Below are positions 42,115 through 49,078 of a DNA stretch of 64,000 nt, piece after piece (positions within the stretch are counted from its first letter, which is position 1; every line of letters starts with the position of its first letter). Under the pieces are notes generated by a model. It was not told the origin of the DNA, did no database searches, and worked only from the letters and a program-made list of their open reading frames with translations. The translations under genes were made by a program, and so were the position numbers. Where the stretch lies: NCBI GenBank assembly GCA_025544715.1, contig GCA_025544715.1_4109.2; one strand, given 5' to 3'. The stretch comes from Escherichia coli. GTDB taxonomy: Bacteria; Pseudomonadota; Gammaproteobacteria; Enterobacterales; Enterobacteriaceae.

Positions 42115-42149
42115 AGAAAAGGGGAGTACAAAGTACTCCCAACATTTAA

Positions 42150-42704
42150 TTATAGTTTAATTGATTCTTGAATACCAGTATCCATTGCTTTCTTGGTACG
42201 TGTATCAGATACTACTGTACAAAGGTGTTCAATATTTTCACTTGGAAACGTATTCGAATCAAGAATTTTGGAATTCCAGAAGCCTTTGCGGAACTTAGCA
42301 TAATCAGTACACTGGTCAATTTTCATTTTCTGAAGATTGTTGAACTTTGTACGTCCTGTTTCAATTGTCACCATCAATTCCTGATAAATTTTAGGATCAA
42401 GATTTGGAACCTGTTGTTGAATCTGTGACATTACAAACTTCTGGTCAACACCTTCACGCCCTTTAAAGTATGATTCAATCGTTTCTTTCAACGCATCTTT
42501 ATACTTATCGGCTACTTGAACCTTATCTTGAATAGTAAGAGTATAATTGCTAAGTTGACTTTCTGATGCATCATAATACTTTTTAATGTTTCCTTCAAAC
42601 TCAACTGCACGATCATGTGCACCAACATACATACTAATAGAACCAAACACCATTAGTACGATAACTACCAAAATACCAATTAACGCAAGGAGTTTACCAT
42701 TCAT
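42150..42704 (-). CDS. membrane-anchored protein, possibly LemA-like (184 aa)
   Basis: single N-terminal TM helix then helical region; architecture recalls LemA. Confidence 0.3.
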   Translation of the reverse strand: MNGKLLALIGILVVIVLMVFGSISMYVGAHDRAVEFEGNIKKYYDASESQLSNYTLTIQDKVQVADKYKDALKETIESYFKGREGVDQKFVMSQIQQQVPNLDPKIYQELMVTIETGRTKFNNLQKMKIDQCTDYAKFRKGFWNSKILDSNTFPSENIEHLCTVVSDTRTKKAMDTGIQESIKL

Positions 42705-43795
42705 AAATCGTTATCCCTCATATAAAGGCCAATAAAAATAGACAGAATCAACAACACAATGGAAGCACCGATAAGAACATCTTTTCTAGGTTCCATTTTA
42801 ACTGACAAGTACTCAAACTCTTTATTAGAGAGTCTCTCAAAATGTTTGTCAATATTATGTACTTCTTTAACTAGTAAGTCAAGAGTTAATTTTTCATTTA
42901 ATGCATCAATACGCATCTTTGCATGTAACTCTTCATTCTTCATTCCTTGTGCAAATGATGTACTGTAAAATTTGACAACGTTACCATCATTGTCAATACC
43001 AAAGAACATAATAACATCATTCTTCTTACCACCACGCCACGATGCAAGGGTAGCATCAACAAAATCAACATCTTTGTAATCATAAACTAGTACTTGGATG
43101 TTTACCTGCTTACGTGCACCCATCGTTTTTAGCTCATTACGAAGGTATTCATCGTAACCATCAACGTTGTAATTTGTAGTGTTAATTACGTGATGTGTTT
43201 TGTAATAATCAACTACACTTGGGTATTCTGGAATAGTACTAAGATACTTTTCATCATACATGTTGTGTAGTTCTTCAGGACTAAACAATGAGTTCTTATC
43301 AGCAAATAGATAGTTGATATATGAACTCTCTGCTGCGGCATAGTCACCAATAATAACTTGCTGCCAACGTGGTGGTGTCATTGTACCTTGACGGTTCACA
43401 CGTTCAATCTCAAACTCACCTACTGTACTTTTCACATACCAATCAACTTCATATGAGTAATCAAAAACCTTATATGATTCACACTCACGATGTGATTTAC
43501 CTTTACTATCATATCGCGTATGGCACTTCTCATGCCATGTATAGTGCTTACATGAACTAGATTGTGTGCAATATTCTTTGTGGCTGTATTTTGAAGTTAC
43601 TTGACCATTCAGAATCTCAACATCATAAAGCTGGCTATAGTTGATTGCGTATGAAATACCAAGAACAAGAGCCGCACCAACTAGACAACAACCAATATGA
43701 ATCAATAGTTCTTTAGTACTGATATGCTTATCGTACATGTATTTCATAACGAATACAACGATAAGAGCAGGTATTAACAGAATAATGAAATTCAT
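42701..43795 (-). CDS. hypothetical membrane protein with Cys-rich central domain (364 aa)
   Basis: TM segments at both ends; central CTQSSSCKHYTWHEKCH. Confidence 0.5.
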   Translation of the reverse strand: MNFIILLIPALIVVFVMKYMYDKHISTKELLIHIGCCLVGAALVLGISYAINYSQLYDVEILNGQVTSKYSHKEYCTQSSSCKHYTWHEKCHTRYDSKGKSHRECESYKVFDYSYEVDWYVKSTVGEFEIERVNRQGTMTPPRWQQVIIGDYAAAESSYINYLFADKNSLFSPEELHNMYDEKYLSTIPEYPSVVDYYKTHHVINTTNYNVDGYDEYLRNELKTMGARKQVNIQVLVYDYKDVDFVDATLASWRGGKKNDVIMFFGIDNDGNVVKFYSTSFAQGMKNEELHAKMRIDALNEKLTLDLLVKEVHNIDKHFERLSNKEFEYLSVKMEPRKDVLIGASIVLLILSIFIGLYMRDNDL

Positions 43796-43798
43796 GTA

Positions 43799-44560
43799 TT
43801 AATCCATTTTAAGCTTGTTTAGACAGAATGAAATCTGGATTGCTTCACGTGCTGCATCAAACAGTGGGTGATGTAACTCCAACCCATTAATCCCACACGT
43901 ATTTGCATATGTGATAAATTTATCCAACTGTACCGAAACGATTTCATCCATTTCAATACGAGCTTCTTCATTCAATAAACGTTTCAATGTGCGTGCATTT
44001 TCAGGTGCATCATACTTCCACAACTCACCAGCGTTCATTAGTTTTAAATGGTTTGCTTGTAAAATACTACAATCGAAGTTACATCCGTTGCCCCAGACTG
44101 AATGAGGAACTTCTTCACCATAATCATTGTAACGTAATTCTTTCCAGAAATCAACAATACTACTGTATGCAAAAAATCGTCGTGATTGACCATTCGGTCC
44201 ATACAGTTCAGGTGCTTTGAGTTTCATAGTACTGGAAACTTCACTATATGCATTAGGATATTCTTTCTGGCAGGTATTCATCCAAAAATCCATTGCACCT
44301 GCGTCTGATTTTAAACCAGCAGCAACTTGATCCTGGTATGGTAATTTAATATATAAGAACTGACGAATGTCATTTTCAGGTTTACTTGGAACTACTACTG
44401 CTGCGTAATTTGGGATAATAATATCATAACCTGAAAGTTCAGGTGTTCCAAGAGCTTCAATATCAACACTAATATGACGACGTTTCATAAGTTCGTTCCT
44501 TATCTGTACATTAAAAAGAGTGCGTTTCAATAATATTATTATATTAAAAAACGCACTCAT
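43799..44560 (-). CDS. 3-prime-to-5-prime exonuclease, DEDDh family (DexA-like) (253 aa)
   Basis: ISVDIEALGT (DxE motif) and LHHPLFDAAREA (H-x4-D motif). Confidence 0.5.
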   Translation of the reverse strand: MSAFFNIIILLKRTLFNVQIRNELMKRRHISVDIEALGTPELSGYDIIIPNYAAVVVPSKPENDIRQFLYIKLPYQDQVAAGLKSDAGAMDFWMNTCQKEYPNAYSEVSSTMKLKAPELYGPNGQSRRFFAYSSIVDFWKELRYNDYGEEVPHSVWGNGCNFDCSILQANHLKLMNAGELWKYDAPENARTLKRLLNEEARIEMDEIVSVQLDKFITYANTCGINGLELHHPLFDAAREAIQISFCLNKLKMD

Positions 44561-44570
44561 ATGTCAACTA

Positions 44571-45707
44571 TTACTTGTTAGCTTTTTCGGCAATTTCACG
44601 AAGAGTGTCTTCCAGTTCATAGGAAAGTTGTGCAATTTCCTGTTTAGCACGTTCACGTTCCAATTTACCTTTTTTCTCTTCCTCAATAACTGCTTCAATA
44701 CTGTCAATCATCGTTTTATGTACATTACGCAAGGTTTTAATATCCACAATACCACGGTTGTTTGCCTTTGCTGCATCCAACATATTTGCTGCAACCATTT
44801 TAGAGTTAGTTTCCAAAAGACGGTTTGTCTCGTTGTCAATAAGATTACCCAGTTCATTATCCTTACGTTGACGCTCGGAAATCAACTGTTCAGCCAATTG
44901 AGACTTCCATGCTGGAATAACAACGGATTTTAAATCTTCAAACTTAGAAACAGTGTTCAAGTTTACTTTTTTCATACTCATCAAGCGTGGACCACTTAGT
45001 TCGCACATCATGATAAGACGACGAATCTTATCTTCTTGTTTAGAAAGTGCTTCACAAATCATCTTTTGCTCTTGAATAGCAAAAGAGTCTACATTTTTGT
45101 CTGCTTGCATTTCTACTAGTAATGCATCTTGTGTTTTAGTTACTTCTTCTAAACCAACTAATGTATCACGTAATTCAAACAAATATTCTTTGTTTTCATT
45201 ATATGCTTTATCAAGCCATTCACATTCTCCGTGCTGGCGATTAATACCAGTTTGAAGAGTTTTCATAATTTCATCAATTTGCTCTTTACTGTTTTTGTAC
45301 TGATCACCGACTTTCTGTTGAGCATTAACAAAGAATTTCTTAATACGACCAACAATTGATTTATCTTCTTGAAGACTGTCAATATCAACTGCACGAGTCA
45401 ACGTAAGAATTGTGGTGATTGATTTACCAAACTCGGTATTGTCATCTGTTACATTAACTTTAGACATAATTTCATCAGCCAGACGCCCAACAGCAGCACC
45501 AGCAGTTGTACCAACAGTATTGATGTTTTGAACTGTTAGAGACATAGTATTTCCCTTAACATCTTTCAGTACTGGTAGTGATTTTGTAGTTTGGTTAAAA
45601 ATATCACTTGCATCAATTGTATGACCTTTAGTCGCAGTTTTAGTAGTACGTTTTGCTGATTTAGCTGCGGTGGATGCTTTTTTAGGATTGATTTCTTTCT
45701 CGGACAT
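44571..45707 (-). CDS. coiled-coil protein, possibly TelA-like (378 aa)
   Basis: size and charged helical composition recall TelA family; unverified. Confidence 0.45.
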   Translation of the reverse strand: MSEKEINPKKASTAAKSAKRTTKTATKGHTIDASDIFNQTTKSLPVLKDVKGNTMSLTVQNINTVGTTAGAAVGRLADEIMSKVNVTDDNTEFGKSITTILTLTRAVDIDSLQEDKSIVGRIKKFFVNAQQKVGDQYKNSKEQIDEIMKTLQTGINRQHGECEWLDKAYNENKEYLFELRDTLVGLEEVTKTQDALLVEMQADKNVDSFAIQEQKMICEALSKQEDKIRRLIMMCELSGPRLMSMKKVNLNTVSKFEDLKSVVIPAWKSQLAEQLISERQRKDNELGNLIDNETNRLLETNSKMVAANMLDAAKANNRGIVDIKTLRNVHKTMIDSIEAVIEEEKKGKLERERAKQEIAQLSYELEDTLREIAEKANK

Positions 45708-45755
45708 TTAGTATTCCTCGTTTAATTTAATATGATGTGCTGCTCTGTGATAAAC

Positions 45756-45784
45756 ATTATACGGGCAGCACGTATGATAGTCAA
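45756..45784 (-). promoter_or_regulatory. sigma70-consensus promoter (TTGACT-17-TATAAT)
   Basis: minus-strand reading upstream of 44571-45707. Confidence 0.55.
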
Positions 45785-45795
45785 GTATTTTTTTT

Positions 45796-46923
45796 TTACT
45801 CTTTGTTACCATATGCCAGATTACGAATAATCTCTACAGTACTCTCATCTACGGCTTTACCTGTCTGTGATTGTAAACGATTGATAATCAAAGGAATAGT
45901 AATAGTTTGAATATCTACCATACGATTCATATCAACTTGATATTGCTTACTTGTTGCAATAATGCTCGTTTCAGTCATGGATGTGGTGATTCCCATTTTC
46001 ATAATACGTTCTAATGTTAATTCATATTCAAACGCATCATCCACACAACGTAGTGCGTATTCACATCCCAACTTCCCATATTCAAGTTCATTTTTGATTT
46101 CATGAACTTCGTTTCTAAGTTCTGAAAACATCGTACTAAGACCACTAAACTTATTAGTATCATACTTAACTGCTTCATTTAGTGCTTTCATCACTTTTGG
46201 CAAATCTGATGGTTGCACTTTGATATCGGTTTTACCAAACAATTTCTGCGTAAAGGTCGGCTTCAATGGGAACAACGTTTCCAACGCAACAGTAAGGTTA
46301 TTCATAAGCATTCTAATATAATCACTATGCTGTTGTAATGCTGAGTTAAGATCCAATTGACGTTCTGAAATTTGTTGAATCTTAGTTCCAATTTCTTGTG
46401 CACAAACTGGTAAGTTTACAAACCAGTCTAGTACTTTTACTGAATTCTTTTCAATAGTACTAGGGAATTCAACCCATCTTTCAATGTCATCAATTCTGCT
46501 ATCGTCTGGGTTGATAGGTTTTTTCTTAAGAACAATAGGTGCAGGTACATCTGGTGATGTTTGTACCAAGTCTAAACGTGGTTTAGCACGACCTTCTTTC
46601 CATTCACGATATTCACGCTCTAATGGCGGTACTGGCATGTTAGGATCAATTCTAATATTACTAAAATGAATTTTATCCTTCATTAAATCAAGAACTTTCA
46701 GACGTTTATTATCAAAATAGATTTCATCCAATGACAGAGTTTTTACATCAAATAACGGATTACCCAATGAGTCATAGGTGCGGCGAACAATTACATTATA
46801 AATGTATTTTTTGTTTGATGAACGGTCATATTGTTTCAATAAAGAGTTCAGTACATAATTATAGTTAAATTCTTGAATCTCAACTTCTTTGCCATTTTCA
46901 ATGAAAAAATATTTACCTTTCAT
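45796..46923 (-). CDS. hypothetical protein (375 aa)
   Basis: ORF track. Confidence 0.55.
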   Translation of the reverse strand: MKGKYFFIENGKEVEIQEFNYNYVLNSLLKQYDRSSNKKYIYNVIVRRTYDSLGNPLFDVKTLSLDEIYFDNKRLKVLDLMKDKIHFSNIRIDPNMPVPPLEREYREWKEGRAKPRLDLVQTSPDVPAPIVLKKKPINPDDSRIDDIERWVEFPSTIEKNSVKVLDWFVNLPVCAQEIGTKIQQISERQLDLNSALQQHSDYIRMLMNNLTVALETLFPLKPTFTQKLFGKTDIKVQPSDLPKVMKALNEAVKYDTNKFSGLSTMFSELRNEVHEIKNELEYGKLGCEYALRCVDDAFEYELTLERIMKMGITTSMTETSIIATSKQYQVDMNRMVDIQTITIPLIINRLQSQTGKAVDESTVEIIRNLAYGNKE

Positions 46924-47019
46924 TATAAAACCTCATAATCAATTAAAATTTACGCGATGGTGATATTGTACATACTTCGACTACACATGTCAACACCTGA
47001 AAAGAAAAAAGGACGCACC

Positions 47020-47838
47020 TTAGTGCATCCTTTTGTTACTTTTATCCTTGTACCATACAAATGTCTTGACAGGTGGATATTTTTCATTCTTTGGTGGTTC
47101 AGGCATGTCGTATACAGTTGCATTTCTAAACTTAAGAATGTATGTGTCCATCAAACGGATTATACAATAGTTTAAACATTTTTGTGCTCTTTCTTTCCAA
47201 AAATGTTTATATGGTTCTGGACAACCAAGATAATCAAGTTTATACATACTCATTGCAACTTGCATAAATCTTTGGGCCGAGAATTTACGCTTGTCGATTT
47301 TACTTGCCCTATGTTGATCACAGGTCCAGCTTGATACTCCAGGTAAATGACAAAACAAATCAAAACTAACCATACTATCAAAGTATTTGTTATGACCATG
47401 TAACTCACCATAAAATACTGCTTCAGATACTGTATCATATAATGAGAAATTTGAATGTATATGCTCATTATCAAAAATACTTTTTAAATCTTTATAAGTT
47501 TCTGGAACTGGTGGTTCAGGTAATACTTCACCAAATACTTCAACACACCATATCTTCCATAAACCTTTTGTAAATTTATTTTCTAAATCTCTATCACTAT
47601 CTATATAAAAAGTTTTTTCATTTATGAAAACTTTTCTTGCCATGTATGCTTTAAAAATTGCATCTGGATCAATGTCTTCACGATTTACATCATCCCAGCC
47701 TTTACCAATTCTTGAAATTTCAAATCTACGCATATACATGCGACATGCTAAATCTTTAGTAAGGCTGCGACGATACTTTTCATCCTGATGTAATTTGGTT
47801 GTTTCATGAAGAGATTTAAGCATATTTAAAATTCTCAT
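47020..47838 (-). CDS. hypothetical protein (272 aa)
   Basis: ORF track. Confidence 0.5.
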   Translation of the reverse strand: MRILNMLKSLHETTKLHQDEKYRRSLTKDLACRMYMRRFEISRIGKGWDDVNREDIDPDAIFKAYMARKVFINEKTFYIDSDRDLENKFTKGLWKIWCVEVFGEVLPEPPVPETYKDLKSIFDNEHIHSNFSLYDTVSEAVFYGELHGHNKYFDSMVSFDLFCHLPGVSSWTCDQHRASKIDKRKFSAQRFMQVAMSMYKLDYLGCPEPYKHFWKERAQKCLNYCIIRLMDTYILKFRNATVYDMPEPPKNEKYPPVKTFVWYKDKSNKRMH

Positions 47839-48515
47839 CGCAACACCAAATACTTCCCGTTTCTTCCAATTACATATTGATCACCACTTCGTAGTACTGT
47901 ATAGCTTTCCCCTAGTATGGAACTAAGACGCGAAGTGTCTAATTGTGTATCATTCTTTAATAACTTTTTCACATATGTTTCTGAAACAAAACCGCTTCCA
48001 GTACTGTAGTGTAATTTACCATATGCTGTTTTTAATGTCAACATGTTTCCTTCTTTGATTACTGAAACACCAGCATAATCAAGGAACTCACTAATTGAAC
48101 TAGGAATGCCCAAATCAATTCTCTGCTGTATTTCTTCAAAATCAACATCGATTGGGTCATTAACACCATATAGTTGTATTTTCCAACCTGGGTCTGGACA
48201 AATATTTTCAATAGTTTTAATTAAACGTAAAAGTTTTTCAGGGAATTCGGCATTTCGTTCCATTTCCACATAAACTTGATATCGACCATCTAAATTTGGT
48301 GTTTCTGCTGCTTCTGTATCAACTACATCAATAGGTGATTTTTCAATAAAAGAAGATAAATCATATGCTGCATCAAAATTGTTAAGAACCTGAAACATAA
48401 TAACAATATTACTATCTTCAATTTTAGGAGTATATTCATCAACACTAATTATAGGATGAATCAAATCTTTGAGAACTTGCGGACGTAAGCCTTGTTCATT
48501 TAATTTCTTTTTCAT
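47835..48515 (-). CDS. hypothetical protein (226 aa)
   Basis: ORF track; size and position compatible with a divergent sliding clamp, sequence not recognisable. Confidence 0.5.
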   Translation of the reverse strand: MKKKLNEQGLRPQVLKDLIHPIISVDEYTPKIEDSNIVIMFQVLNNFDAAYDLSSFIEKSPIDVVDTEAAETPNLDGRYQVYVEMERNAEFPEKLLRLIKTIENICPDPGWKIQLYGVNDPIDVDFEEIQQRIDLGIPSSISEFLDYAGVSVIKEGNMLTLKTAYGKLHYSTGSGFVSETYVKKLLKNDTQLDTSRLSSILGESYTVLRSGDQYVIGRNGKYLVLR

Positions 48516-49078
48516 TACATTCCACCTTCTTGTGTCTCATCCGTTACTTCCACATCCAAATCTACATCATCACCAGTTACAGGTTCTTCAAAATTTTCTG
48601 GTGAATTCATTGGATTACTATTGAATTCTGCTGCCATTAGTTTATATTCATCAAAACTTTCTGGATTAATTAAGTTTCGTGGAATCTGCACTCTAACCAA
48701 TAGTACTGGGATTCTTTCATTTTTTGGTATACGTACCGACCCTGATTGTGTAGCAACACTTTTCATATCAGCTTGTCGATTAGGATCTTTGATAGGAGTT
48801 ATTTCATAATCAGCTTTAACATACACTTTAGTACCATGCTTCTCCAAAATAGAGAATGCTGTAGGATCAGGGAAATTTTCACGATAGTATTTGAATGTTA
48901 CAGTACACCAATACTTACTTACAATTGGTCCCTCTACCAACTCACCCTCAATAATTCCTTTATACGCATACAAATCATTATCATCGAAATATTTTTCTAC
49001 AGCAAGAAGTATATCTAACATACCACTGTTATCATACAACTGCTGAATAGCATTATCTGTATAATCTAAATCGTCCAT
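48515..49078 (-). CDS. hypothetical acidic protein (187 aa)
   Basis: ORF track; position downstream of clamp loader. Confidence 0.5.
   Translation of the reverse strand: MDDLDYTDNAIQQLYDNSGMLDILLAVEKYFDDNDLYAYKGIIEGELVEGPIVSKYWCTVTFKYYRENFPDPTAFSILEKHGTKVYVKADYEITPIKDPNRQADMKSVATQSGSVRIPKNERIPVLLVRVQIPRNLINPESFDEYKLMAAEFNSNPMNSPENFEEPVTGDDVDLDVEVTDETQEGGM

What the first reader, a model, noticed from the sequence alone, without database searches (positions are those of the whole stretch)
42150..46923. Membrane-protein pair, DEDDh exonuclease and coiled-coil proteins downstream of the replication genes
A single-TM LemA-like protein, a 364-aa two-ended membrane protein with a Cys/His-rich centre, a DexA-like exonuclease, a 378-aa TelA-like coiled-coil protein and a 375-aa unknown form a co-directional block with its own consensus promoter at 45756-45784. 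The mix of envelope and nuclease functions could be a host-DNA degradation, envelope-stress or exclusion module.
Basis: inference. Interest (0 to 1): 0.4.

Follow-up and report, generated by a model that had tools for sequence, protein, structure and literature searches.

The report
Two envelope gene pairs plus an exonuclease
This stretch of a known giant E. coli phage is not one module: it holds two separately conserved gene pairs (a TelA protein with a TelA-like partner, and a membrane pair that mirrors the bacterial LemA/TPM pair) with an ordinary exonuclease gene between them, all apparently early genes.

Summary
The window comes from an Asteriusvirus jumbo coliphage (121Q/PBECO4/phAPEC6 group, 98.7% identical). 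All five ORFs are real and lie on the minus strand.

- **A** is a divergent LemA protein with one membrane helix.
- **B** has three membrane helices. Its periplasmic part is a 4-Cys beta domain followed by a TPM-like domain.
- **C** is a DEDDh 3'-5' exonuclease. Its real start is probably 44488, not 44560.
- **D** is a bona fide TelA.
- **E**, the "unknown", is a TelA-associated partner whose helical C-terminal half is distantly TelA-like.

The block is not one operon. It has three sigma-70 consensus promoters and three terminator-like hairpins, and the window carries 33 such promoters on this strand.

Only two linkages hold outside this phage clade. B-A is adjacent in 83 of 84 viral loci (12 clades, about 490-500 cultured phage genomes) and mirrors the bacterial LemA-TPM pair. 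E-like/TelA is adjacent in every context examined, elsewhere usually inside TerC/TerD clusters that this phage lacks.

The exonuclease is linked only by clade synteny, and nothing supports host-DNA degradation. The likeliest role of the two pairs is early envelope or membrane maintenance, but this is inferred, not shown.

Three genes were already annotated this way. The assignments for B and E appear new, and interest is modest.

The parts
47007..47034 (-). Intrinsic-terminator-like hairpin that closes the upstream unit (gene F)
   Evidence: 12-bp stem followed by a T-run. Folding energy -18.9 kcal/mol, z = -5.2.
46965..46993 (-). Sigma-70 consensus promoter in front of E (TTGACA-17-TACAAT, 11/12)
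   Evidence: A promoter of at least 10/12 sits at the same position in all 13 relatives of the clade.
45796..46923 (-). E: 375-aa cytoplasmic protein with no TM helix. It has a clade-specific N-terminal alpha/beta domain (about residues 1-110) and a long-helix C-terminal domain (about 160-371) that is TelA-like. It is a conserved upstream partner of TelA.
   Evidence: phrog_13312, function unknown. AF2 model pLDDT 87.5. The E-family HMM hits FBKp34 gp134, the gene just upstream of that phage's telA, at 1.7e-25. All 4 distant relatives examined lie directly upstream of a Pfam-TelA gene. hhalign of the E family against the TelA family: probability 81.5%, E = 1.1e-5, with five control families at 0.05 or worse. 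TelA proteins appear among the top viral fold matches. Only 31 cluster representatives exist among 1.8 billion proteins.
45756..45784 (-). Sigma-70 consensus promoter in front of D (TTGACT-17-TATAAT, 11/12).
   Evidence: Scores 11-12/12 at the same position in 10 of 13 relatives. No convincing terminator lies between E and D (z = -1.1), so read-through from E is possible.
44571..45707 (-). D: 378-aa TelA-family protein, with no TM helix and a Lys/Thr/Ala-rich N-terminal tail
   Evidence: Pfam TelA 1.8e-37, 129.7 bits against a cut-off of 30. phrog_5890 at 4e-136. 100% identical to the 121Q 'TelA-like protein'. No TM helix.
44513..44558 (-). Terminator-like hairpin plus U5 after D. Its loop contains the -10 element of the next promoter.
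   Evidence: Folding energy -19.7 kcal/mol, z = -4.4. Annotated as a terminator in phage G17.
44538..44567 (-). Perfect sigma-70 consensus promoter (TTGACA-18-TATAAT, 12/12) in front of C-B-A
   Evidence: It is not conserved in relatives, where a consensus promoter often lies between C and B instead.
43799..44488 (-). C: DEDDh 3'-5' exonuclease, 229 aa from the probable start (the ORF is open up to 44560)
   Evidence: Pfam Rv2179c-like 1.9e-8, 34.6 bits against a cut-off of 27. phrog_255 'exonuclease' at 1e-33. D9, E11, D139, H206 and D211 are invariant in 11 homologues. Start and ribosome-binding site.
42701..43795 (-). B: 364-aa inner-membrane protein. TM helices at 3-21, 30-48 and 340-358. 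The periplasmic part is a beta-rich 4-Cys domain (about 57-160) plus a TPM-like alpha/beta domain (about 203-335) with the signature W-x-GGKKND.
   Evidence: phrog_2087, function unknown. AF2 model pLDDT 91. 8 of the top 16 PDB fold matches are TPM-domain structures, probability up to 0.94. hhalign against bacterial LemA-linked TPM proteins: E = 0.0045 over the signature motif. One homologue gives a weak Pfam TPM hit, 0.044. Topology follows from charge bias.
42150..42704 (-). A: 184-aa single-pass (N-in, C-out) divergent LemA-family protein. Its start overlaps the stop of B by 4 nt (ATGA).
   Evidence: The family profile hits PDB 2ETD 'lemA protein' at 3.7e-6, the only significant hit. hhalign against bacterial LemA: probability 98.1%, E = 1e-13. 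12 of 40 family members hit Pfam LemA weakly. An A homologue lies directly downstream of B in 83 of 84 viral loci.
42122..42140 (-). Terminator-like hairpin closing the C-B-A unit
   Evidence: 8-bp GC-rich stem followed by a T-rich tail. A GC-rich hairpin plus T-run follows the A gene in all 13 relatives.

Best explanation
**What is there (shown).** The interval is a mosaic of three early-type transcription units in an Asteriusvirus jumbo coliphage. It is not a single module.

1. **E then D.** A canonical cytoplasmic TelA (D) is preceded by a very divergent TelA-like helical partner (E). This dyad recurs in unrelated phages, where it normally sits inside TerC/TerD/vWA-TerF clusters. Here it stands alone.
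2. **C.** A stand-alone DEDDh 3'-5' exonuclease with all five catalytic residues. It is linked to its neighbours only within this clade.
3. **B then A.** These two genes overlap by 4 nt and encode inner-membrane proteins whose bulk faces the periplasm. A is a divergent LemA. B is a 3-TM protein carrying a disulfide-type Cys domain and a TPM-like domain. Together they are the phage counterpart of the bacterial LemA-TPM gene pair. The pair is a self-contained cassette conserved in about 490-500 large virulent phages.

**How it most likely works (inferred).** All three units are read by host sigma-70 RNA polymerase soon after infection. B and A assemble into a complex on the periplasmic face of the inner membrane. 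E and D assemble into a TelA-type hetero-oligomer on its cytoplasmic face. Both would serve to keep the infected cell's envelope intact and energised during the long latent period. In other words, they are borrowed bacterial envelope-stress functions rather than nuclease or exclusion machinery. C most likely trims nucleic-acid 3' ends (RNA or ssDNA) independently of the two pairs.
For: **Identity of the window.** 98.7% DNA identity to Asteriusvirus genomes.

**Transcription units.**
- Three promoters scoring 11-12/12 and terminator-like hairpins, two of them with z = -4.4 and -5.2.
- 33 consensus promoters on the coding strand against 2 on the other.
- Promoter positions in front of E and D are conserved in relatives.

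**A is a LemA protein.**
- Family profile hits PDB 2ETD at 3.7e-6.
- hhalign against bacterial LemA: 98.1%, E = 1e-13.

**B carries a TPM-like domain.**
- AF2 model pLDDT 91.
- TPM-domain structures dominate the top fold matches.
- hhalign E = 0.0045, aligning W-GGKKND with the bacterial WGIGDK-KNNG motif.
- The order of strands and helices matches that of TPM domains.

**The bacterial precedent was tested here.** 69 of 80 bacterial LemA loci carry a TPM ORF within 4 kb, and 30 of 30 downstream neighbours hit Pfam TPM, with E-values down to 1.4e-46.

**The B-A linkage.**
- Adjacent in 83 of 84 loci across 12 clades, with no third conserved neighbour.
- 487 and 502 phage records respectively, with near-identical host distributions.

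**Topology.** Charge bias puts the LemA domain and the 290-aa B domain outside the membrane. Bacterial LemA shows the same bias.

**The E-D linkage.** Adjacent in all 14 clade loci, in phage FBKp34 and in 4 of 4 distant contexts.

**E is TelA-like.** hhalign 81.5%, E = 1.1e-5 with clean controls. TelA proteins appear among its top viral fold matches.

**Other points.** A complete genome of the same genus has no TerC, TerD or vWA-TerF. C has intact catalytic residues. None of the five was found in the phAPEC6 virion proteome, while the neighbours G and H were (PMC7247149).
Against: - No experiment on any phage copy of these genes was found. No LemA, TPM-partner or TelA protein has a defined biochemical mechanism, so 'envelope maintenance' is an analogy.
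- The TPM assignment for B is weak by sequence. There is no Pfam hit for the window protein. The bacterial TPM HMM does not hit B directly. hhalign probability is only 7.8%. Foldseek E-values are 0.015-0.07. The EVGYGLE-type motif of bacterial TPM domains is not evident in B.
- The window protein A itself gives no Pfam LemA hit. Only the family profile does.
- Gene order is reversed relative to bacteria: LemA is downstream in phages and upstream in bacteria.
- PHROGs and several GenBank records label the A family 'virion structural protein', which does not fit an early membrane protein.
- Early timing is inferred from promoter sequence only.
Confidence: 0.55

Rival explanations
1. One reading: the five genes form one co-regulated module that couples envelope proteins to a nuclease, for host-DNA degradation or exclusion.
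For: The genes are co-directional and tightly packed, and C-B-A share one promoter in this phage. The same order E-D-C-B-A is kept in all 14 loci of the RaK2-like clade.
Against: - There are three promoters and an internal terminator.
- In relatives, a consensus promoter separates C from B, and 270-440 nt of extra DNA separates D from C.
- Outside the clade, B-A occurs without TelA, E or (except in two clades) the exonuclease.
- TelA/E occurs elsewhere with Ter genes, not with LemA.
- TelA is not next to LemA in 80 bacterial loci.
- C is a small proofreading-type DEDDh enzyme, not an endonuclease.
Confidence: 0.06
2. Superinfection exclusion. The early-made periplasm-facing B-A complex, the TelA pair, or both, block DNA entry of competing phages or the action of colicins.
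For: - The proteins appear to be early-expressed and sit in the inner membrane facing the periplasm, like known exclusion proteins.
- ter gene clusters on IncHI2 plasmids confer phage inhibition and colicin resistance (Whelan et al. 1995, as cited in the paper read).
Against: - Exclusion genes are usually lineage-specific and fast-evolving. B-A is conserved across 12 deep clades, including hits in Bacillus phage G and Prevotella Lak phages. That suggests a universal membrane target.
- The phage-inhibition phenotype was described for terZABCDEF, not for telA. This phage has no TerC or TerD.
Confidence: 0.18
3. The B-A pair belongs to the virion or ejection apparatus, or to lysis timing (antiholin- or spanin-like), rather than to envelope maintenance.
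For: - The A family is labelled 'virion structural protein' in PHROGs and in several GenBank records.
- The neighbouring genes G and H encode virion proteins in phAPEC6.
- The type II membrane topology resembles that of some lysis regulators.
Against: - Neither gp143c nor gp144c was among the 62 virion proteins of phAPEC6.
- The cassette has a host-type promoter and its own terminator.
- No endolysin or holin is a conserved neighbour.
- Homology to cellular LemA/TPM pairs argues for a cellular-type function.
Confidence: 0.1
4. Anti-defence. The two pairs protect the inner membrane against host abortive-infection effectors that kill by depolarising or perforating the membrane.
For: Both pairs derive from bacterial families tied to envelope or toxic-anion stress. 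They appear to be made early and are widespread in large virulent phages.
Against: There is no direct evidence. None of the five proteins matches a PADLOC defence family. No literature link was found.
Confidence: 0.1

Closest known systems
Bacterial LemA (PF04011; PDB 2ETD) plus TPM-domain protein (PF04536; YgcG/TLP18.3/Psb32 type) gene pair
   Same: - A single-pass LemA protein sits next to a membrane-anchored protein whose TPM-type alpha/beta domain lies outside the cytoplasm and is followed by a TM helix.
- Homology of A to LemA is strong at profile level.
- The pairing itself was verified in bacteria here.
- Some distant B homologues keep a short basic or Gly-containing C-terminal tail.
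   Different: - Gene order is reversed: the TPM-like gene comes first in phages.
- B has two extra N-terminal TM helices instead of a signal peptide.
- B has an extra beta-rich 4-Cys domain.
- B has no long Gly-rich tail.
- B has a different signature (W-GGKKND) and no evident EVGYGLE motif.
- Neither A nor B reaches Pfam thresholds.
TelA / KlaB 'toxic anion resistance' family (PF05816), and phage Ter clusters (TerC, TerD, vWA-TerF, TelA) as in Klebsiella phage FBKp34 and Caulobacter phage CcrSC
   Same: D is a full-length TelA. The E-like/TelA dyad is the same as in FBKp34 gp134-gp135 and in metagenomic phage Ter clusters.
   Different: - This phage genus has no TerC, TerD or vWA-TerF anywhere in a complete genome.
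- E carries an extra N-terminal alpha/beta domain of about 110 residues, absent from the 290-340-aa partners elsewhere.
DEDDh 3'-5' exonucleases of the Rv2179c-like family (PF16473), and the 'exonuclease/metallopeptidase' genes of T5-like phages
   Same: C has all five DEDDh residues, a single domain of about 230 aa, and passes the Pfam threshold. It is 24-28% identical over its full length to the T5-like phage genes.
   Different: The substrate (RNA or DNA) is unknown. No relative of T4-like genome size appeared among the sampled tblastn hits, so 'DexA-like' holds only at superfamily level. The 'metallopeptidase' label in several GenBank records has no support here.

Membership tests
LemA family (PF04011) | Sequence match to the family model at its curated threshold | tested here: not met
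   The window protein A gives no LemA hit even at E up to 10. 12 of 40 family members hit below threshold, best 4e-4.
LemA family (PF04011) | Profile-level homology over the whole domain to genuine LemA proteins or the solved LemA structure | tested here: met
   The A-family profile hits PDB 2ETD at 3.7e-6, collinear in two stretches. hhalign against 30 bacterial LemA proteins: probability 98.1%, E = 1e-13, 156 columns including the TM helix.
LemA family (PF04011) | One N-terminal TM helix followed by a helical domain of about 150 aa, with the same charge bias as bacterial LemA | tested here: met
   TM helix at 5-23. K+R/D+E before the helix is 1.4/0.15; after it, 1.0/1.7. Bacterial LemA gives 1.8/0.2 and 0.9/2.0.
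LemA-TPM gene pair | LemA gene directly adjacent to a gene for a membrane-anchored TPM-domain protein | tested here: inconclusive
   Adjacency of A with B holds in 83 of 84 loci. B is TPM-like by fold and weakly by profile, and the gene order is reversed relative to bacteria.
TPM domain (PF04536) | Sequence match to the family model | tested here: not met
   B gives no hit. One homologue scores 0.044. The bacterial TPM HMM finds no B protein. hhalign: E = 0.0045, probability 7.8%, 57 columns.
TPM domain (PF04536) | TPM alpha/beta fold | tested here: inconclusive
TPM domain (PF04536) | Phosphatase or metal-binding residues and activity | not testable with these tools
   The motif equivalent to EVGYGLE is not evident in the B alignment. 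An enzyme assay is needed.
TelA (PF05816) | Sequence match at the curated threshold over the full domain (protein D) | tested here: met
   129.7 bits against a cut-off of 30; residues 60-370 match model positions 14-331 of 332.
TelA (PF05816) | Membership of protein E | tested here: inconclusive
   No Pfam hit. BLASTP of E against D finds nothing. hhalign of broad family alignments: probability 81.5%, E = 1.1e-5, E 177-368 aligned to D 68-300, with controls at 0.05 or worse. TelA proteins rank 6, 8 and 23 among viral fold matches, E = 0.03-0.26.
Ter stress-response cluster (TerC/TerD/vWA-TerF with TelA) | TerC, TerD or vWA-TerF genes in the same genome | tested here: not met
   tblastn with 13 Ter proteins from four phages finds nothing at E of 0.1 or better, either in the window or in a complete 351,992-bp genome of the same genus.
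DEDDh exonuclease, Rv2179c-like (PF16473) | Family match plus the five catalytic residues (DxE, D, Hx4D) | tested here: met
   34.6 bits against a cut-off of 27. D9, E11, D139, H206 and D211 are invariant in 11 sequences down to 18% identity.
T4 DexA | Specific sequence similarity to T4 exonuclease A | not tested
   No direct comparison was made. The 504 tblastn hits sampled were RaK2-like or T5-like genomes only.
Anti-phage defence systems (PADLOC) | Match to any defence-system protein model | tested here: not met
   None of A-E hits at E up to 0.1.

The most novel reading that the evidence does not exclude
Large virulent phages from at least 12 clades carry a portable two-gene cassette: a 3-TM Cys/TPM-like protein plus a divergent LemA. 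RaK2-like jumbo phages add a minimal TelA/TelA-like dyad stripped from Ter clusters. Together these would act as a phage-encoded membrane-protection system that keeps the inner membrane sealed and energised. This would include protection against host abortive-infection effectors that kill by membrane damage. If so, it would be a general anti-defence or host-maintenance strategy, and it would give the first handle on what LemA-TPM and TelA proteins do.
Probability: 0.12. Interest if true: 0.65.

Novelty: new variant of a known kind. Interest (0 to 1): 0.3.

Why it matters
LemA, its TPM partners and TelA are very widespread bacterial proteins with no defined mechanism. This analysis shows that phages keep both as tight two-gene units:

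- B-A occurs in about 490-500 cultured phage genomes, with no other conserved neighbour.
- E-like/TelA is adjacent wherever it was examined.

That gives two compact systems that can be tested genetically, and it replaces 'hypothetical protein' for two PHROG families (2087 and 13312). For this particular window the practical message is more modest: the block is ordinary early-gene mosaic in a known phage, and the nuclease is not part of an envelope machine.

Tried and rejected
**Searches that returned nothing useful**
- Direct Pfam, NCBIfam and PADLOC scans of A, B and E.
- Sequence searches of the PDB with C, D, the narrow A alignment and the B alignment.
- BLASTP of D against E.
- Pfam scans of distant E-like proteins.
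- PDB fold search with the E model: only generic helical bundles such as ClyA, AhlC and MIC60, with E of 0.2 or worse. I do not read a pore-forming fold into this.
- Literature searches for LemA+TelA+phage, LemA+TPM, LemA family+phage, TelA, and LemA+jumbo found no functional study. The Ter-systems paper by Anantharaman et al. 2012 was not available.

**Tests that needed a second attempt**
- hhalign of E against D using only clade members gave probability 3%. It became informative only after both alignments were broadened.

**Hypotheses tested and rejected**
- TelA is linked to LemA in bacteria: 1 marginal hit in 80 loci.
- A third gene travels with B-A: none found.
- Ter genes lie elsewhere in the genome: none found.

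**Artefact**
- My iterated exonuclease HMM picked up B proteins because one locus (L012) has C and B in a single ORF. Those 'C' hits were discarded.

**Unavailable**

Full report
**Source and gene content**

The 4.8-kb interval is 98.4-98.7% identical to more than 20 sequenced Asteriusvirus jumbo coliphages, including JP4, phAPEC6, 121Q, PBECO4 and G17. In those records the five genes are annotated variously as LEMA protein or virion structural protein, hypothetical protein, exonuclease or 'metallopeptidase', TelA-like protein, and hypothetical protein.

All five ORFs are present on the minus strand. I call them:
- A: 42150-42704
- B: 42701-43795
- C: 43799-44488/44560
- D: 44571-45707
- E: 45796-46923

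The next genes upstream, F (47020-47838), G (47835-48515) and H (48515-49078), come up in several comparisons below.

**Transcription**

Three near-perfect sigma-70 promoters lie in the intergenic gaps:
- 46993-46965 (11/12), before E
- 44567-44538 (12/12), before C

Terminator-like hairpins lie in three places:
- Upstream of E's promoter, closing gene F (-18.9 kcal/mol, z = -5.2).
- After D (-19.7 kcal/mol, z = -4.4). This one overlaps the next promoter.
- After A. This hairpin is weaker (-12.2 kcal/mol, z = -1.5), but all 13 relatives have one at this position.

There is no convincing terminator between E and D.

The 12/12 promoter lies inside the long reading of C. The downstream ATG at 44488 has a ribosome-binding site and is the annotated start in phAPEC6 and G17, so C is most likely 229 aa.

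The units are therefore [E (and possibly on into D)], [D] and [C-B-A]. This arrangement is not special to the block. The 64-kb window has 33 promoter matches of at least 11/12 on the coding strand and 2 on the other.

In 13 relatives of the clade, the promoters before E and D are conserved in position. The promoter before C is not. Instead, many relatives have a consensus promoter between C and B, and 270-440 nt of extra DNA between D and C.

**A is a divergent LemA**

The window protein alone does not hit Pfam LemA, and close homologues carry no Pfam annotation.

I collected the gene downstream of B from 80 viral loci and built a 40-member alignment with 20-73% identity to A. Three tests followed:
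- 12 of its members hit Pfam LemA weakly.
- Its profile finds PDB 2ETD 'lemA protein' as the only significant hit (3.7e-6).
- hhalign against 30 bacterial LemA proteins gives probability 98.1%, E = 1e-13 over 156 columns.

**B is a three-TM protein with a periplasmic Cys domain and a TPM-like domain**

B belongs to phrog_2087 (function unknown) and has no Pfam match. A 51-sequence alignment shows near-invariant C82, C91 and C105, with C76 in 88% of members, and the motif W-x-GGKKND.

The AlphaFold model is confident (pLDDT 91). It shows:
- two N-terminal TM helices
- a beta-rich domain at about residues 57-160
- an alpha/beta domain at about 203-335, with strand and helix order beta-alpha-beta-alpha-beta-beta-alpha-alpha
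- a C-terminal TM helix

Evidence for the TPM assignment comes from several weak but agreeing lines:
- Foldseek against the PDB puts eight TPM-domain structures (Psb32, TLP18.3, LMTP1, PG_0361, Rhom172_1776, cg2496, BA41) among the top 16 hits. Probabilities reach 0.94, but E-values are only 0.015-0.07.
- One homologue gives a weak Pfam TPM hit (0.044).
- hhalign against bacterial LemA-linked TPM proteins gives E = 0.0045. It aligns W-GGKKND-V with WGIGDK-KNNGVL.

I rate the TPM-like assignment as likely, not proven.

Charge bias places the N-terminus of A inside the cell and its LemA domain outside. It places the 290-aa central part of B outside and its C-terminal tail inside. The conserved Cys residues therefore probably form periplasmic disulfides.

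**The bacterial precedent, tested rather than recalled**

I used a fragment of the 2ETD sequence to fetch 80 bacterial LemA loci. In 62 of them an ORF starts within 250 nt downstream of LemA, and most of these are 250-300 aa. Of 30 sampled, all 30 are Pfam TPM proteins, with E-values down to 1.4e-46. In total, 69 of 80 loci hold a TPM ORF within 4 kb.

The phage pair is thus the counterpart of a real bacterial pair. It differs in having reversed gene order and a different architecture for the TPM partner.

**Which linkages are real**

- **B-A.** In 84 viral loci that carry a B homologue, an A homologue lies immediately downstream in 83. The exception is a truncated contig. The loci fall into 12 clades at under 45% B identity, and no other gene family is shared across clades. 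Among cultured phages, B is found in 487 records and A in 502, with nearly identical host breakdowns. These include Ackermannviridae, RaK2-like and Erwinia jumbo phages, and phages of Aeromonas, Vibrio, Acinetobacter and Sinorhizobium. A-family hits also occur in Bacillus phage G and a Lak phage. In this phage the start of A overlaps the stop of B by 4 nt.
- **The rest.** TelA, E, F and G accompany B-A only in the 14 RaK2-like loci.

**E is the partner of TelA**

The E family is tiny: 43 clusters at 90% identity and 31 representatives among 1.8 billion proteins.

Its HMM hits gp134 of Klebsiella phage FBKp34 at 1.7e-25. FBKp34 is an unrelated 141-kb phage. gp134 is the gene directly upstream of that phage's telA, inside a TerC/TerF/TerD cluster.

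Four distant E-like representatives (283-343 aa, lacking the N-terminal domain) were looked up. Each lies directly upstream of a Pfam-TelA gene, next to TerD and mostly also TerC and vWA-TerF.

The relationship of E to TelA itself needed broad alignments:
- With clade-only alignments, hhalign of E against TelA was uninformative.
- With 70 E-like and 22 TelA sequences it gives probability 81.5%, E = 1.1e-5, over E 177-368 and D 68-300. Five control families score 0.05 or worse.
- The E model (pLDDT 87.5) has three long helices in this region.
- Its viral fold matches are, in order: its own orthologue; a 292-aa protein that is probably FBKp34 gp134 by length; three Caulobacter jumbo-phage proteins; then annotated tellurite-resistance proteins.

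So E and D are probably very old paralogues that work as a pair.

A complete genome of the same genus has no TerC, TerD or vWA-TerF. Here the dyad acts without the rest of the Ter system.

**C**

C passes the Pfam Rv2179c-like threshold. All five DEDDh residues are invariant down to 18% identity. Outside the clade, its nearest phage relatives are T5-like genes at 24-28% identity. Its linkage to B-A is seen in only two clades. Nothing suggests a role in degrading host DNA.

**Function**

I found no experimental work on any of these phage genes. phAPEC6 virion mass spectrometry detected the neighbours gp149c and gp150c (G and H in this window) but none of gp143c-gp147c (PMC7247149).

My best reading is that these are early-expressed, borrowed envelope-stress functions. 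B-A would act on the periplasmic face of the inner membrane, and E-D on the cytoplasmic side. This reading is an inference from homology, topology and promoter type. The rivals are superinfection exclusion, virion or lysis roles, and anti-abortive-infection protection. None is excluded.

**Verdict**

The 'single module' interpretation is not. The sequence itself is known, and three of the five annotations already exist.

What appears to be new is:
- the assignment of B as the TPM-like partner of a phage LemA
- the assignment of E as a TelA-like partner of TelA
- the recognition that these two dyads, not the five-gene block, are the conserved units

Interest is modest (0.3).

Noticed in passing
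window 1-64000, minus strand: There are 33 matches of at least 11/12 to the sigma-70 consensus (TTGACA-16/18-TATAAT) on the coding strand and only 2 on the other. The whole window looks like a long array of short early units read by host polymerase.
   Followed up: partly
window 44513-44567: The terminator-like hairpin after telA (z = -4.4) and the perfect 12/12 promoter of the next unit occupy the same DNA. The -10 hexamer lies in the hairpin loop.
   Followed up: partly
window 47835-49078 (G and H): These two genes sit in the same run of consensus-promoter units, yet their phAPEC6 orthologues (gp149c, gp150c) were detected in virions by mass spectrometry. They may be packaged or ejected proteins encoded among early-type genes.
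   Followed up: no
window 42824-42852: An 11/12 promoter-like site (TTGACA-17-TCTAAT) lies inside the 3' end of gene B, about 120 nt upstream of the start of A. It could give A extra expression of its own.
   Followed up: no
L012:5260-7095 (IMGVR_UViG_2029527005_000005): In this relative the exonuclease and B read as one continuous ORF. This is either a real fusion or a sequencing error. It contaminated my first exonuclease HMM.
   Followed up: partly
window 42150-42704, and PHROG 1383: The LemA-like family is labelled 'virion structural protein' in PHROGs and in many GenBank records, but it was not found in the phAPEC6 virion proteome. I did not trace the origin of the label.
   Followed up: partly
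L001 (phAPEC6 gp145c, gp147c, gp148c): The GenBank labels 'putative metallopeptidase' (C), 'S-layer domain-containing protein' (E) and 'G patch domain-containing protein' (F) have no support in the Pfam, NCBIfam or PHROG scans. They look like annotation errors that have spread to other records.
   Followed up: partly
L087-L094 (FBKp34, CcrSC and metagenomic contigs): Phage Ter clusters have a recurring order: vWA-TerF / TerC / TerD / TerD / E-like / TelA. In phage 'ukendt' a different, unrelated 182-aa gene precedes telA.
   Followed up: partly
window 47020-47838 (F): This 272-aa protein is restricted to the RaK2-like clade and has no family match. In relatives, 600-1000 nt of extra DNA separates it from E, whereas here the gap is 97 nt.
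   Followed up: no
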